Virus record (IMG/VR): IMGVR_UViG_3300012943_000031
Location: 1-64,000 of that record
Origin: a virus
Direction: 5' to 3' (one strand)
Length of the DNA stretch: 64,000 bases
Every line of letters begins with the position of its first letter. The stretch's first letter is position 1. Below the pieces are notes generated by a model. That model did not search any database and was not told where the DNA came from. It saw only the letters and a list, made by a program, of their open reading frames with translations. Shown one piece after another: positions 24,225-52,681 of this stretch. Both the position numbers and the translations under genes were made by a program.

Positions 24225-24523
24225 TGATATTAGTAGGAGAATTAGAATATACAGATAAGAAGATGGCCCCAGATGGTTTCAGAGGATTCTTATTTGTTGG
24301 AAATAATGGAAATGCATACCAATATAATATATCTCCTTATCCTGAGAAGGAGTCTGCTTGGGTGGGTGACAATTTTGTAAGTGGAAAGAATCTTTCAGTT
24401 ACAGAGTTTCTCCAGTCTATTGTAGATCAAGACATAGAGATAGGTAGAAATGCATATGTGAGATTTAAGGATAATGTTGGTATTCGTCTGAAAGGAATGA
24501 GTGAATGGATAACTAGAAAATAA
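24224..24523 (+). CDS. Hypothetical protein
   Basis: TAATG-coupled ORF. Confidence 0.6.
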   Translation: MILVGELEYTDKKMAPDGFRGFLFVGNNGNAYQYNISPYPEKESAWVGDNFVSGKNLSVTEFLQSIVDQDIEIGRNAYVRFKDNVGIRLKGMSEWITRK

Positions 24524-25056
24524 TGAGTGACTATACAATAAATATGAAGGAATATCTGGATGATTGGGGTAATGGGAACAAAATCCACCCCACAGCAGTC
24601 ATAGGCCCAAATGTGAAGATGGGTAATAATAATTATATTGGGCCATTCTGTATTATAGGGTTTCCAGCAGAACATAAAGATTTCTGGGATGAACCTACAG
24701 GTCATGTAGAGATTGGTAACAACTGTGTATTTACAGGACACGTGACTGTGGATGCTGGTACGGAACAACCTACATACATAGGACATAATGTATGGATGTT
24801 AAAACATTCTCATGTTGGTCATGATGCTTTTATAGGAAATGATGTGACAATCTCCTGTGGAGCTAAAATTGGAGGACATGCTACTATATGTCCCGGTTGT
24901 AATATAGGGTTAAATGCAACTATTCATCAAAGAGTAGAAGTACCACATAACTGTATGATAGGGATGAATGCTGCTGTAACAAAGAAATTAGAAATGAAAG
25001 AAAGTCGTAAATATGCTGGTGTCCCTGCAAAGGATATTGGCTCAAATATAATATAA
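24523..25056 (+). CDS. Hexapeptide-repeat acyltransferase, LpxA-like
   Basis: IHPTAVIGPNVKMG, TYIGHNVWMLKHSHVGHDAFIG and left-handed beta-helix repeats. Confidence 0.85.
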   Translation: MSDYTINMKEYLDDWGNGNKIHPTAVIGPNVKMGNNNYIGPFCIIGFPAEHKDFWDEPTGHVEIGNNCVFTGHVTVDAGTEQPTYIGHNVWMLKHSHVGHDAFIGNDVTISCGAKIGGHATICPGCNIGLNATIHQRVEVPHNCMIGMNAAVTKKLEMKESRKYAGVPAKDIGSNII

Positions 25057-47852: not shown

Positions 47853-47884
47853 TTTGGAATTTGCCAAATTACTTCGTATATTTG
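47853..47884 (+). promoter_or_regulatory. Promoter of tRNA operon 1
   Basis: TTTG-N20-TATATTTG. Confidence 0.85.
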
Positions 47885-48820: not shown

Positions 48821-48997
48821 ATGGTAATGAAAGGTAAAAATAAACTAGAAAGAATGGAATTACGTGCTGCTAAAAGATTTAACAGACGTTCTAAGAAAAT
48901 AAAATTCCATCTTACTAATGATTGGAGTTGGACATTTCCTATCCCTAAAGAGGGAATTCCAAAAATAGTTGAAGAAATATTTGGAAACGGCAAATAA
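48821..48997 (+). CDS. Small basic hypothetical protein
   Basis: MVMKGKNKLERMELRAAKRFNRR...; the longer start in the track overlaps tRNA-Arg. Confidence 0.5.
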   Translation: MVMKGKNKLERMELRAAKRFNRRSKKIKFHLTNDWSWTFPIPKEGIPKIVEEIFGNGK

Positions 48998-49011
48998 ATG
49001 TCGTATCTTTG
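48980..49011 (+). promoter_or_regulatory. Promoter of tRNA operon 2
   Basis: TTTG-N20-TATCTTTG. Confidence 0.85.
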
Positions 49012-50632: not shown

Positions 50633-51031
50633 ATGAGTAAACAAAGTAACCAAAAGAAGACTGAACAATTGGGTATGCCAATTGGTACAGCAAGTAATAG
50701 ATTGAGGAAATCAATTATCTTTAATCTGTTAAAGAAAGCAAATGAGAATTTCTGTTTCCAATGTGGAGCAGAAATAGAATTAGAGAATGAATTATCAATA
50801 GAACATAAGACTCCATATCTGGATTCTGAAGACCCACAAGGTCTGTTCTTTGATTTAGATAATATAGCTTTTTCTCACCTGTCATGCAATGTAGGTGCTG
50901 CAAGACAGACTCATAGAGTAAAGAATCATGGCCTGACTCTCTACAAAGATGGTTGTAGATGTGGTATTTGTGTGACAGCACAAAAAGAATCTTGGTCAAA
51001 ATATGATAAGAAGAGAAGAGTAAAAACGTAG
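50633..51031 (+). CDS. HNH endonuclease (free-standing, homing-type)
   Basis: CFQCG...LSIEHKTP...NIAFSHLSCN and C-terminal GCRCGIC. Confidence 0.8.
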   Translation: MSKQSNQKKTEQLGMPIGTASNRLRKSIIFNLLKKANENFCFQCGAEIELENELSIEHKTPYLDSEDPQGLFFDLDNIAFSHLSCNVGAARQTHRVKNHGLTLYKDGCRCGICVTAQKESWSKYDKKRRVKT

Positions 51032-51105: not shown

Positions 51106-51178
51106 GTTGTTGTAGCTTAATGGTTAAAGCTCATGTCTTATACACATGTGAGTGAGAGTTCGAGTCTCTCCAACAACA
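51106..51178 (+). tRNA. tRNA-Ile(TAT)
   Basis: CATGT-CTTATAC-ACATG. Confidence 0.88.
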
Positions 51179-51187
51179 CACAAATAT

Positions 51188-51891: not shown

Positions 51892-51923
51892 TTTGGAATT
51901 TTATTCTCAGTACCGTATATTTG
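51892..51923 (+). promoter_or_regulatory. Promoter of the suppressor tRNA / Pth2 unit
   Basis: TTTG-N20-TATATTTG, overlapped by a 12-bp inverted repeat (51908-51941). Confidence 0.8.
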
Positions 51924-51934
51924 TGAAAGTATAC

Positions 51935-52006
51935 GGTACTGTAGTTTAATGGCAAAACAGCAGTCTCTAAAACTGAATAGTGTGGGTTCGATCCCCATCA
52001 GTACCA
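51935..52006 (+). tRNA. Amber suppressor tRNA (CTA anticodon)
   Basis: Acceptor GGTACTG/CAGTACC, A73, CAGT-CTCTAAA-ACTG, GTGGG-TTCGATC-CCCAT. Confidence 0.88.
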
Positions 52007-52023
52007 CAATTAAACCAAATACA

Positions 52024-52500
52024 ATGAGTAAGTAGATGGAAATCCAGAAACTGGTAACTGTGACCAGAACTGACTTACCTGAAGGTTATCAGGCAGTACA
52101 GTCAACACATGCAGCAATTGATTTTGTTTTTGAACATCCTACACGTGCTGGCCCTTGGCATAAAAACAGTAATACGTTAGTGATGTTAACAGTAAAGGAC
52201 ACGAAAGGTCTCCTTCACCTAATGAGGAAGTGTGATTATCTGTCTATAGCTTATACTGTTTTCAGGGAACCAGATATTGGTAACCAAATCACAGCCATCT
52301 GTATGGAGCCTCATGAGGAGGTTTACAAGATGGTTAGTAAGCTACCTTTATTAATACCAAAAACACAATCAAATGAATACCAAGACACTATCAATCAAAG
52401 CCAAGTTAGCCAACCAAGTGAGAACAATCTTCTACAAGAAGTGGGATGTGACGAAAATCACAGAACACGAACAGAAGAGGATGTTGAGAGAGTTAGCTGA
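52024..52500 (+). CDS. Pth2-family peptidyl-tRNA hydrolase-like protein, with in-frame TAG at codon 4
   Basis: KLVTVTRTDLPEGYQAVQSTHA...LVMLTV...FREPDIGNQITAI fits the PTH2 pattern. ATG AGT AAG TAG ATG at 52024-52038, with the A-rich leader before the first ATG. Confidence 0.75.
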
Positions 52501-52648
52501 GTTAACTAAAGAAGTTCACTATGAGTTAAATCTCTACAAGGGTAAGAGAAGAGATAAGAAAATACTCTTAGAAAAGAGGTTAGAAGCCCCTCAAACAAAG
52601 ACCATGAAGAAGAAACTGAAAGGTCACAGAAAAGAAATTTCAAAATAA
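52373..52648 (+). CDS. Basic hypothetical protein
   Basis: ORF track; AAAAACACAATCAA leader. Confidence 0.55.
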   Translation: MNTKTLSIKAKLANQVRTIFYKKWDVTKITEHEQKRMLRELAELTKEVHYELNLYKGKRRDKKILLEKRLEAPQTKTMKKKLKGHRKEISK

Positions 52649-52649
52649 A

Positions 52650-52681
52650 TTTGGAAATCGTGAAAAAAGGTTGTATATTTG
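52650..52681 (+). promoter_or_regulatory. Promoter of tRNA operon 3
   Basis: TTTG-N20-TATATTTG. Confidence 0.85.

What the first reader, a model, noticed from the sequence alone, without database searches (positions are those of the whole stretch)
51892..52500. Amber suppressor tRNA next to a Pth2-like gene that has TAG at codon 4
Seen: a CUA-anticodon tRNA with its own promoter. Seventeen nt later comes ATG AGT AAG TAG, in frame with a Pth2-like ORF, and the A-rich initiation context precedes the first ATG. The long ORFs in the window contain no internal TAG, so the genome is not globally recoded. Inference: the suppressor gates one gene by read-through, possibly a sensor of release-factor or translation stress that switches on peptidyl-tRNA recycling. 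An ATG directly after the TAG also allows reinitiation.
Basis: partly seen in the sequence, partly recalled or inferred. Interest (0 to 1): 0.83.

Follow-up and report, generated by a model that had tools for sequence, protein, structure and literature searches.

The report
Suppressor-tRNA-gated phage Pth2-like gene
A large standard-code phage carries its own UAG-reading tRNA directly in front of a tRNA-hydrolase-like gene that has a UAG stop as its fourth codon, and nearly every distant phage relative keeps the same layout, so this looks like a natural, apparently unpublished, tRNA-operated switch, though in this phage a second start codon may let the gene bypass it.

Summary
A phage promoter motif (51892-51923) precedes a canonical tRNA(CUA) (51935-52007). 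Seventeen nt later comes ATG AGT AAG TAG, in frame with a PTH2-family ORF (52036-52500). The 107 kb of genome held shows no TAG recoding.

Within this genome the pattern is not beyond chance. Conservation makes it significant. In 57 of 58 non-redundant distant homologues from IMG/VR, the first in-frame stop upstream of the domain is TAG. Other ORFs in the same loci show this in 66 of 361 cases (Fisher 6e-35). Usually the leader reads M-x(1-3)-TAG with no start codon after it. Where the host uses Shine-Dalgarno sites, the site serves the upstream ATG. Fifty of 58 clusters have a same-strand tRNA(CUA) within 3 kb.

Three close relatives keep the exact layout, including an ATG right after the TAG. 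So in this subclade the gate can be bypassed.

Best reading: synthesis of the hydrolase-like protein is coupled to suppressor activity. The purpose is inferred, not shown.

Cultured phages share the layout (Bxz1, Myrna, XacN1). The XacN1 paper reported that the targets of its CUA tRNAs were unknown. I found no published description. This scan has already noted the module many times on other DNA.

The parts
51892..51923 (+). Promoter-like site of the unit (TTTGGAA-N17-CGTATATTTG; Bacteroidota-type -33/-7 motif)
   Evidence: Pattern search: 9 matches against 2.8 expected. Near-identical copies lie before other tRNA blocks at 47853, 48980 and 52650. No terminator-like site lies between here and 52650.
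51935..52007 (+). tRNA with anticodon CUA (reads UAG). Anticodon loop is CUCUAAA, discriminator is A, and no CCA is encoded.
   Evidence: ARAGORN; Rfam RF00005 at 67.4 bits. Its nearest paralogue in the array is tRNA-Gln(CUG), 73% identical.
52024..52032 (+). Three-codon leader ATG AGT AAG (M-S-K), 17 nt after the tRNA
   Evidence: Sequence. The leader length and the 17-nt spacer are kept in relatives L082-L084 while the leader codons differ (MKR, MKK).
52033..52035 (+). In-frame TAG (codon 4), followed by A at +4
   Evidence: TAG at the equivalent place in 57 of 58 homologue clusters, against 66 of 361 for other ORFs.
52036..52500 (+). Pth2-like ORF (154 aa from the second ATG). The PTH2 domain is residues 5-106. 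The tail 107-154 is low-confidence and overlaps the next ORF.
   Evidence: Pfam PF01981; PHROG 1866; PDB profile hits to archaeal Pth2; AF2 model with Foldseek top 12 all Pth2.
52373..52648 (+). Small basic ORF (91 aa) that overlaps the Pth2-like tail in another frame. It is the last gene of the unit.
   Evidence: It is conserved as an overlapping ORF in L083 and L084 and recurs near Pth2 in 8 loci. It has no Pfam or PHROG match.
52650..52681 (+). Next promoter-like site, which marks the downstream boundary of the unit

Best explanation
A short transcription unit (promoter, tRNA(CUA), 17-nt spacer, ATG AGT AAG TAG, Pth2-like ORF, small basic ORF) couples synthesis of a PTH2-fold tRNA-ester hydrolase to the activity of the phage's own amber suppressor. 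Ribosomes that start at the conserved first ATG meet UAG at codon 4. If release factor 1 wins, only a tripeptide is made. If the co-transcribed tRNA(CUA) decodes the UAG, the full-length enzyme is made. The gate sits at codons 2-5 across the family. There an aborted attempt costs almost nothing. From established E. coli work, cited from memory, termination on very short nascent chains is inefficient, and a purine after UAG favours suppression. In this subclade an ATG directly follows the TAG. The gate is therefore probably leaky: direct initiation or termination-reinitiation can give a basal level, and the suppressor raises it. The most likely purpose is to scale peptidyl-tRNA (or other tRNA-ester) clearance to the amount of stop-codon read-through that the suppressor causes in an otherwise standard-code infection. 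What is shown: the anatomy, its conservation, the standard code, and the Pth2 fold. What is inferred: that the tRNA is expressed and charged, that it reads this UAG, the enzyme's substrate, and the purpose.
For: Anatomy in the window. Family-wide conservation across 80 IMG/VR loci in 58 clusters at 41-62% identity:
- TAG is the first upstream in-frame stop in 57 of 58 clusters.
- An ATG lies 1-4 codons before the TAG in 55.
- No ATG, GTG or TTG occurs in the first codons after the TAG in most; 51 of 59 are 'gated-like' against 7 of 361 other ORFs, and TAG enrichment gives Fisher 6e-35.
- The codon after the TAG is often not a possible start: GTA 7, GTT 4, and GCT, AGA, CTT, AGC, AAA once each. 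It begins with a purine in 56 of 57.
- Shine-Dalgarno motifs sit 6-9 nt before the upstream ATG in the SD-using lineages (L051, L062, L066, L067, L069, L075-L077, and XacN1).
A same-strand tRNA(CUA) lies within 3 kb in 50 of 58 clusters and is often the only tRNA in the locus. Two further cases appeared when I looked harder (L047, atypical tRNA; L020, 3.3 kb away). The tRNAs differ widely in their acceptor stems, but 49 of 64 share the loop CUCUAAA. Flanks of the relatives are standard code. The two lineages that lost the leader-TAG frame (L002, L004) have no tRNA(CUA) in the sequence held, which for L004 is a complete 126 kb genome. Close relatives L082-L084 keep tRNA, 17-nt spacer, ATG-N6-TAG-ATG although the leader codons and the tRNA bodies have diverged.
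Against: Nothing here is experimental. In this window the second ATG (52036) has a start context as good as the first (PWM 2.09 against 2.74). All roughly 20 closest homologues begin M-E at that position, so tRNA-independent expression is plausible. In cluster C mycobacteriophages the SD is spaced for the GTG after the TAG, not for the start codon before it. One complete 360 kb genome (G005/L068) has the TAG leader but no detectable tRNA(CUA). TAG ends 8 of 110 of this phage's own genes, so a strong suppressor has a cost. The Lys regarded (from memory) as catalytic in archaeal Pth2 is Tyr18 here and varies across the family, so the substrate may not be peptidyl-tRNA. An earlier audit in this scan priced the bold 'self-contained switch' reading at only 20/100.
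Confidence: 0.6

Rival explanations
1. Bypass or relic: in this phage the protein starts at ATG 52036 independently of the tRNA. The ATG AGT AAG TAG stretch is an inherited remnant, or a three-codon upstream mini-ORF that acts by termination-reinitiation at the adjacent ATG. The tRNA(CUA) serves some other purpose.
For: The ATG directly after the TAG is conserved in the whole subclade. The start-context scores of the two ATGs cannot be told apart. Mycobacteriophages have an SD spaced for the start codon after the TAG. L002 shows that the family can move to a downstream TTG start.
Against: This does not explain why the stop is always TAG, never TAA or TGA, nor why a CUA tRNA is linked. In most clusters there is no start codon after the TAG, and 16 of 57 have a codon there that cannot initiate. 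The subclade still keeps ATG1, the exact leader length, the TAG and the tRNA despite heavy divergence around them.
Confidence: 0.25
2. Negative feedback: the gate works as described, but the hydrolase acts on the suppressor's own ester (aminoacyl- or peptidyl-tRNA(CUA)). More suppression then makes more enzyme, which lowers suppression. The result is a set-point controller that limits read-through of the phage's own TAG-terminated genes.
For: The Pth2 fold is also used by aminoacyl-tRNA deacylases (archaeal DTD2; from memory). The family has lost the canonical Lys but keeps invariant H25, S45, E78, D80 and T86, which suggests altered chemistry. The pairing with the tRNA is tight. TAG still terminates 8 of 110 genes.
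Against: There is no direct evidence. The acceptor stems and discriminator bases of the tRNA(CUA)s are very diverse, which argues against a tRNA-specific enzyme.
Confidence: 0.15
3. Partial genome recoding: the missing ~28% of the genome holds TAG-recoded genes (code 15-like blocks). The tRNA(CUA) serves those genes, and the Pth2 TAG is just one recoded codon among many.
For: The record is only 72% complete by CheckV. Block-wise recoding with suppressor tRNAs is known in crAss-like and other gut phages.
Against: The 107 kb held includes terminase, portal, major head protein and the giant proteins, with no TAG-joined ORFs. Flanks of 52 relatives gain no more coding under TAG-as-sense than under the TGA control. 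The TAG always sits at codons 2-5, unlike the scattered TAGs of recoded genes.
Confidence: 0.07
4. Chance juxtaposition of a tRNA array member and an ORF that happens to have an upstream ATG and TAG.
For: Within this genome about 10% of open frames have an ATG within 8 codons before the preceding stop, whichever stop it is.
Against: 57 of 58 homologue clusters share the TAG (Fisher 6e-35), and 50 of 58 share the tRNA.
Confidence: 0.01

Closest known systems
Stop-codon-recoded phages with phage-encoded suppressor tRNAs ('code 15', TAG read as Gln; crAss-like, Lak, Garnet, etc.) and their 'code change modules' (Borges et al. preprint 10.1101/2021.08.26.457843; Peters et al. PMC9523058)
   Same: A phage-encoded tRNA(CUA) makes translation of phage genes that hold in-frame TAG depend on the suppressor. 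The idea that this gives regulatory timing is the same. The host is likely Bacteroidota, as for many code-15 phages.
   Different: Here the genome is standard code. A single gene family carries the TAG, always at codons 2-5, and it is physically linked to the tRNA. The word 'hydrolase' does not occur in the preprint's text.
prfB (RF2) autoregulation through an early in-frame UGA
   Same: An early in-frame stop codon in a translation-factor gene turns the balance between termination and read-through at that codon into a control of the gene's own expression.
   Different: prfB needs a +1 frameshift, and the product itself reads the stop. Here the frame is continuous, the decoder is a dedicated tRNA, and the product is a hydrolase-like protein, not a release factor.
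Phage lambda bar minigenes and peptidyl-tRNA hydrolase (Pth)
   Same: A two- to three-codon ORF ending in a stop is the class of element whose translation releases short peptidyl-tRNAs that Pth must recycle (established E. coli work, from memory). Here such a mini-ORF sits at the head of a Pth-like gene.
   Different: bar minigenes are free-standing, end in TAA or TGA, and are not fused in frame to a hydrolase or linked to a suppressor tRNA. Drop-off was not tested here.
Archaeal/eukaryotic peptidyl-tRNA hydrolase 2 (PF01981; PDB 1rzw/3erj, 1wn2, 2zv3, 1xty, 1q7s)
   Same: Full-length sequence and fold match. The HA motif and an acidic residue in the 'DAG'-equivalent strand are conserved.
   Different: About 17-28% identity. 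The loop before the Gly-Lys motif is shortened, the Lys position is variable, and the motif is FREPD instead of DAG-T. The family is phage-restricted in the collections searched. Activity is untested.
Xanthomonas jumbo phage XacN1 and cluster C mycobacteriophages (Bxz1, Myrna, ScoobyDoobyDoo)
   Same: These are cultured phages with tRNA(CUA) and a homologous Pth2-like domain preceded by an in-frame TAG. XacN1 ORF364 is preceded by GAGGA-N8-ATG AAG TAG. Bxz1 has ATG TAG GTG. Myrna and ScoobyDoobyDoo have GTG TAG GTG, with a tRNA(CUA) 130-300 nt downstream.
   Different: In XacN1 the domain is fused behind an HD hydrolase domain and the tRNAs lie in the terminal repeats. In the mycobacteriophages the SD is spaced for the start codon after the TAG. 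The XacN1 paper states that no target of its CUA tRNAs could be found.

Membership tests
PTH2 peptidyl-tRNA hydrolase family (PF01981) | Sequence match to the family profile above the curated cut-off, over the whole domain | tested here: met
   30 bits against a cut-off of 23, E 6.7e-7, with residues 5-106 on profile positions 2-115 of 115. A family profile hits archaeal Pth2 structures at E 8e-11 to 1e-6.
PTH2 peptidyl-tRNA hydrolase family (PF01981) | Pth2 alpha/beta fold | tested here: met
   The AF2 model has mean pLDDT 64, with the core at 70-90. The Foldseek top 12 PDB matches are all Pth2 entries, probability 0.99-1.00, target-normalised TM 0.49-0.64. The model is only of moderate quality.
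PTH2 peptidyl-tRNA hydrolase family (PF01981) | Catalytic residues (the Lys of the G-K motif and the Asp of the D-A-G motif in archaeal Pth2; recalled from memory) | tested here: inconclusive
   An acidic residue is kept (E78 and D80 are invariant). The Lys position is Tyr18 and varies across the family. H25, S45 and T86 are invariant.
PTH2 peptidyl-tRNA hydrolase family (PF01981) | Hydrolysis of peptidyl-tRNA | not testable with these tools
   Needs an enzyme assay or complementation of pth(ts).
Amber suppressor tRNA | Canonical tRNA cloverleaf with a 7-nt anticodon loop, U33, anticodon CUA and a purine at position 37 | tested here: met
   ARAGORN; Rfam 67.4 bits; loop CUCUAAA. There is one G-A mismatch at 27:43 (read).
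Amber suppressor tRNA | Expressed, aminoacylated, and decodes UAG in vivo | not testable with these tools
   Only a promoter-like motif and similarity to the phage's own tRNA-Gln(CUG) (73%) are available.
Stop-codon-recoded (code 15) phage | Many genes interrupted by in-frame TAG; coding density rises when TAG is read as sense | tested here: not met
   The gain under TAG-as-sense is about the same as under the TGA-as-sense control. No long ORF pairs are joined by TAG apart from this locus. The same holds in the flanks of 52 relatives.
Stop-codon-recoded (code 15) phage | TAG not used as a terminator | tested here: not met
   8 of 110 heuristically called genes end in TAG.
prfB-type autoregulatory recoding site | A frameshift is needed to pass the early stop, and the product itself recognises the stop | tested here: not met
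   The leader and the ORF are in the same frame. The product is Pth2-like, not a release factor. No RF-1 domain gene is present in the 107 kb held.
bar-type minigene | Start codon, one or two sense codons, then a stop | tested here: met
   ATG AGT AAG TAG. Family leaders are mostly 2-3 codons. The defining phenotype, toxicity when Pth is limiting, is not testable here.

The most novel reading that the evidence does not exclude
Standard-code phages of many unrelated lineages (Bacteroidota phages, jumbo phages, cluster C mycobacteriophages, XacN1) share a self-contained, tRNA-operated translational switch. In this reading the main job of their long-puzzling amber suppressor tRNAs is to control a dedicated tRNA-ester hydrolase. 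In some phages the same unit also holds an HD hydrolase, a CCA-adding enzyme and a UGA-interrupted RF1-like factor. Together they would form a module that takes over host translation termination and tRNA recycling, and that may be the evolutionary seed of whole-genome TAG recoding.
Probability: 0.3. Interest if true: 0.9.

Novelty: new variant of a known kind. Interest (0 to 1): 0.75.

Why it matters
Suppressor tRNAs in phages that use the standard code have had no known target; the XacN1 authors said so explicitly. This locus and its relatives give a concrete, conserved target: the fourth (elsewhere second to fifth) codon of a Pth2-like gene next to the tRNA.

If the gate works, it is a natural equivalent of the amber-suppression switches built in synthetic biology. 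It would also be a new way for phages to couple a translation-quality enzyme to their own manipulation of stop-codon reading, and a plausible first step towards genome-wide TAG recoding.

It has a practical consequence as well. Gene callers systematically truncate or misplace the start of this family.

The idea can be tested in cultured systems (Bxz1 or Myrna in M. smegmatis, XacN1).

Tried and rejected
Steps that failed or gave nothing:
Only three came from the metagenome scan.
- A single-protein scan of viral contigs and a megablast against isolated phages found nothing. The profile-based scan was needed.
- The scan of cellular genomes gave only 5 hits, on MAG contigs. One has the same length (425,361 bp) as a viral contig already found, so it is likely mis-binned phage.
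- Lowering ARAGORN thresholds to look for a hidden tRNA(CUA) in G005 gave mostly implausible calls.

Ideas tested and rejected:
- Whole-genome TAG recoding was rejected.
- TAG itself as a start codon read by an initiator-like tRNA(CUA) was rejected. The tRNA has a paired 1:72 and no G-C run in the anticodon stem (read). An upstream ATG is conserved, and SD sites are spaced for that ATG.
- Reinitiation at the codon after the TAG as the general mechanism was rejected for at least 16 of 57 clusters, where that codon cannot initiate. It stays open for this subclade.
- A second candidate gate in this genome (ATG GAT AAT TAG before ORF 24523-25056) is not conserved in a 79% identical relative, so it is chance.
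- The HD hydrolase and RF-1 domain genes seen beside the module elsewhere are absent from the 107 kb held.

Inconclusive:
- A start-context weight matrix could not separate the two ATGs.

Full report
**What is in the window.**
The window is the first 64 kb of a 106.8 kb IMG/VR viral record that CheckV rates 72% complete. It encodes a terminase, a portal and a major head protein. It holds 28 tRNA genes, 26 of them in a plus-strand array at 48.0-53.4 kb.

At 51935-52007 ARAGORN finds a tRNA with anticodon CUA. Rfam scores it at 67.4 bits, among the best of the array. Its anticodon loop is CUCUAAA and its discriminator base is A. No CCA is encoded.

Directly upstream, at 51892-51923, lies TTTGGAA-N17-CGTATATTTG. 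This fits the Bacteroidota -33/-7 promoter consensus (TTTG / TAnnTTTG; consensus recalled from memory). The motif occurs 9 times in the window against 2.8 expected. Near-identical copies stand before other tRNA blocks and again at 52650. No terminator-like site lies between 52007 and 52650.

Seventeen nt after the tRNA comes ATG AGT AAG TAG ATG, in frame with ORF 52036-52500. That ORF is a complete PTH2 domain:
- Pfam gives 30 bits against a cut-off of 23, with residues 5-106 on profile positions 2-115 of 115.
- A family profile hits the archaeal Pth2 structures.
- An AlphaFold model of moderate quality has only Pth2 entries as its 12 best Foldseek matches.

A small basic ORF (52373-52648) overlaps the tail in another frame and ends the unit.

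**Is the genome recoded?**
No, as far as it is held. Reading TAG as sense raises long-ORF coverage no more than reading TGA as sense. The only long frames joined by a single TAG at a real gene are those at this locus. TAG terminates 8 of 110 heuristically called genes.

**Is the local pattern beyond chance?**
Not by itself. About one open frame in ten in this genome has an ATG within eight codons before its preceding stop, whichever stop that is. A second such case, at 24514, is not conserved in a 79% identical relative. The weight of the finding rests on comparison with other phages.

**Comparison with homologues.**
The protein has 116 homologues in the large protein collection, many on phage-sized contigs. 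A profile scan of IMG/VR returned 80 loci at 41-62% identity, which fall into 58 non-redundant clusters.

In 57 of the 58 clusters, the first in-frame stop upstream of the conserved domain is TAG, 1-9 codons before the homology begins. In 55 of them an ATG lies 1-4 codons before that TAG. The leaders read M-K-*, M-T-*, M-T-H-*, M-S-L-*. In most clusters there is no ATG, GTG or TTG between the TAG and the domain.

Other open frames of at least 100 codons in the same loci are preceded by TAG in 66 of 361 cases. That gives Fisher 6e-35. The full 'gated' pattern is seen in 51 of 59 family members against 7 of 361 controls.

The codon after the TAG is ATT in 35 clusters. In 16 clusters it cannot initiate (GTA, GTT, GCT, AGA, CTT, AGC, AAA). 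It begins with a purine in 56 of 57.

In lineages whose hosts use Shine-Dalgarno sites, a GGAG or GAGG motif sits 6-9 nt before the upstream ATG, too far from the post-TAG codon.

Fifty of the 58 clusters hold a tRNA(CUA) on the same strand within 3 kb, and it is often the only tRNA there. Looking further added two cases: an atypical, D-arm-poor tRNA(CUA) just upstream in L047, and two tRNA(CUA) genes 3.3 kb away in L020.

The tRNAs are very diverse in their acceptor stems and discriminator bases, but 49 of 64 share the loop CUCUAAA. What is conserved is therefore UAG reading, not a particular amino acid. The flanks of the relatives are standard code.

**Exceptions.**
- In L002 the leader ATG is out of frame and the gene is called from a TTG after the TAG. 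No tRNA(CUA) was found in the 86 kb held.
- In L004 the upstream stop is TGA and there is no start. Its complete 126 kb genome has no tRNA(CUA).
- These two fit co-loss of the gate and the tRNA.
- One complete 360 kb genome (L068/G005) keeps the TAG leader, yet I could not detect a tRNA(CUA) in it. This counts against a strict rule.

**The window's own subclade.**
Three metagenome contigs with 79-82% identical proteins show the same layout: tRNA(CUA), a 17-nt spacer, ATG-NNN-NNN-TAG-ATG. The leader codons differ (MKR, MKK against MSK), and the tRNA bodies differ strongly. So ATG1, the leader length, the TAG and the tRNA are all under constraint.

The ATG directly after the TAG is conserved too, and all roughly 20 closest homologues begin M-E there. 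A weight matrix built from 45 confident starts of this phage shows A-rich, G-poor contexts with no SD, as in Bacteroidota. It scores the two ATGs alike (2.74 and 2.09, both within the range of real starts).

For this phage I therefore cannot say whether the protein is made only by read-through. A leaky gate is the most economical reading.

**Cultured phages and the literature.**
tblastn against isolated phages finds the domain in 206 Mycobacterium phage records (cluster C: Bxz1, Myrna, I3 and others), in XacN1, in Stenotrophomonas and Tenacibaculum phages, and in the huge metagenomic phages.
- Bxz1 reads ATG TAG GTG before gp154, with a tRNA(CUA) 300 nt downstream that is annotated 'tRNA-OTHER'.
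- Myrna and ScoobyDoobyDoo read GTG TAG GTG, with a tRNA(CUA) 130-180 nt downstream. In these phages the SD is spaced for the start codon after the TAG.
- In XacN1 the domain is the C-terminal half of ORF364, behind an HD hydrolase domain. ORF364 is preceded in frame by GAGGA-N8-ATG AAG TAG.

The XacN1 paper reports two CUA suppressor tRNAs. It says that reading through the 18 amber stops revealed no target.

Five full-text searches combining peptidyl-tRNA hydrolase, suppressor tRNA, phage, amber and recoding found no description of this arrangement. I also read the recoding survey of Borges et al., which describes code-change modules of tRNA, synthetase and release factor; the word 'hydrolase' does not occur in its text. 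A 2026 jumbo-phage survey does not mention the arrangement either.

This scan's own notebook holds many earlier notes of the same module on other DNA: 394 notes from at least 227 genomes. A later audit in that notebook accepted the observation but priced the bold switch reading low. I re-derived the core counts independently here.

**Mechanism.**
Shown:
- a promoter-tRNA-leader-TAG-hydrolase unit;
- family-wide conservation of an early TAG behind a real start site;
- linkage to a UAG-reading tRNA;
- standard code elsewhere;
- a Pth2 fold.

Inferred: ribosomes that start at the first ATG reach UAG at codon 4. Either RF1 releases a tripeptide, or the co-transcribed tRNA(CUA) inserts a residue and the enzyme is made.

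The very early position makes failed attempts cheap. According to E. coli work that I cite from memory, it also places the stop where termination is inefficient. The purine after the TAG is the context that favours amber suppression.

Output would then track the ratio of charged suppressor to RF1. I consider the most likely purpose to be matching tRNA-ester clearance to the amount of read-through the suppressor causes. A negative-feedback limiter of the suppressor is a serious alternative. The family has replaced the canonical Lys (Tyr18 here, variable elsewhere) while keeping H25, S45, E78, D80 and T86 invariant.

Which amino acid is inserted is unknown. The closest paralogue in the array is tRNA-Gln(CUG), at 73% identity.

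**Verdict.**
Relative to published knowledge this is a new variant of suppressor-tRNA-dependent phage gene expression. It is a single-gene, cis-linked amber gate in standard-code phages.

Noticed in passing
Related loci L008:1051-1728, L019, L024, L033, L042, L048, L079 (also L047, L049, L054): A short release-factor-1-like gene lies 1.5-2.8 kb upstream of the gated Pth2-like gene. It lacks domain 1, carries the P-P-T and GGQ motifs, matches Pfam PCRF and RF-1, and hits RF1 structures at E 2e-40. In 7 phages it holds two conserved in-frame TGA codons, although the flanks are not TGA-recoded. In 3 others the N-terminal part seems to lie in another frame. No such gene is present in this window's genome.
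   Followed up: partly
L101 (Xanthomonas phage XacN1, AP018399: 243756-244595): ORF364 is an HD-domain plus Pth2-like fusion. It is preceded in frame by an SD, ATG AAG TAG and four codons before the annotated ATG. This is a likely target of the two CUA suppressor tRNAs whose targets the XacN1 paper could not identify.
   Followed up: partly
window 52373-52648 (+): A 91-aa lysine/arginine-rich ORF overlaps the low-complexity tail of the Pth2-like ORF in another frame. It is conserved as an overlapping ORF in close relatives, recurs near Pth2 in 8 loci, and is fused in frame to the Pth2 domain in homologue P0021. It has no Pfam or PHROG match.
   Followed up: partly
window 47853-47884, 48980-49011, 51892-51923, 52650-52681 (+): A shared promoter-like motif, TTTGGAA-N17-18-(C)GTAT(A/C)TTTG, divides the tRNA array into several short transcription units. 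It fits the Bacteroidota -33/-7 consensus and points to a Bacteroidota host, as do the A-rich, G-poor, SD-less start contexts.
   Followed up: partly
window 50633-51031 (+): An HNH endonuclease gene (Pfam HNH, 22.8 bits) sits inside the tRNA array, between tRNA-Glu and tRNA-Asp. It ends in TAG, with a second TAG one codon later.
   Followed up: no
window 51106-51179 (+): A tRNA-Ile with anticodon UAU lies next to tRNA-Ile(GAU). The array holds no tRNA-Tyr among its 28 tRNAs.
   Followed up: no
L047:2900-2975: A tRNA-like gene with a CUA anticodon loop and a much reduced D arm lies just upstream of the gated Pth2-like gene. ARAGORN misses it at default settings. Such atypical suppressors mean that tRNA(CUA) counts are lower bounds.
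   Followed up: partly
Alignment A1 / proteins P0022-P0116: Public gene calls for this family start at internal GTG, ATG or TTG codons or at the codon after the TAG. The family's N-termini are therefore systematically mis-annotated in the databases.
   Followed up: partly
genome 70346-91580 (beyond the window, + strand): Three giant ORFs of 1679, 3163 and 2084 aa follow one another, all ending in TAA. They were not examined.
   Followed up: no
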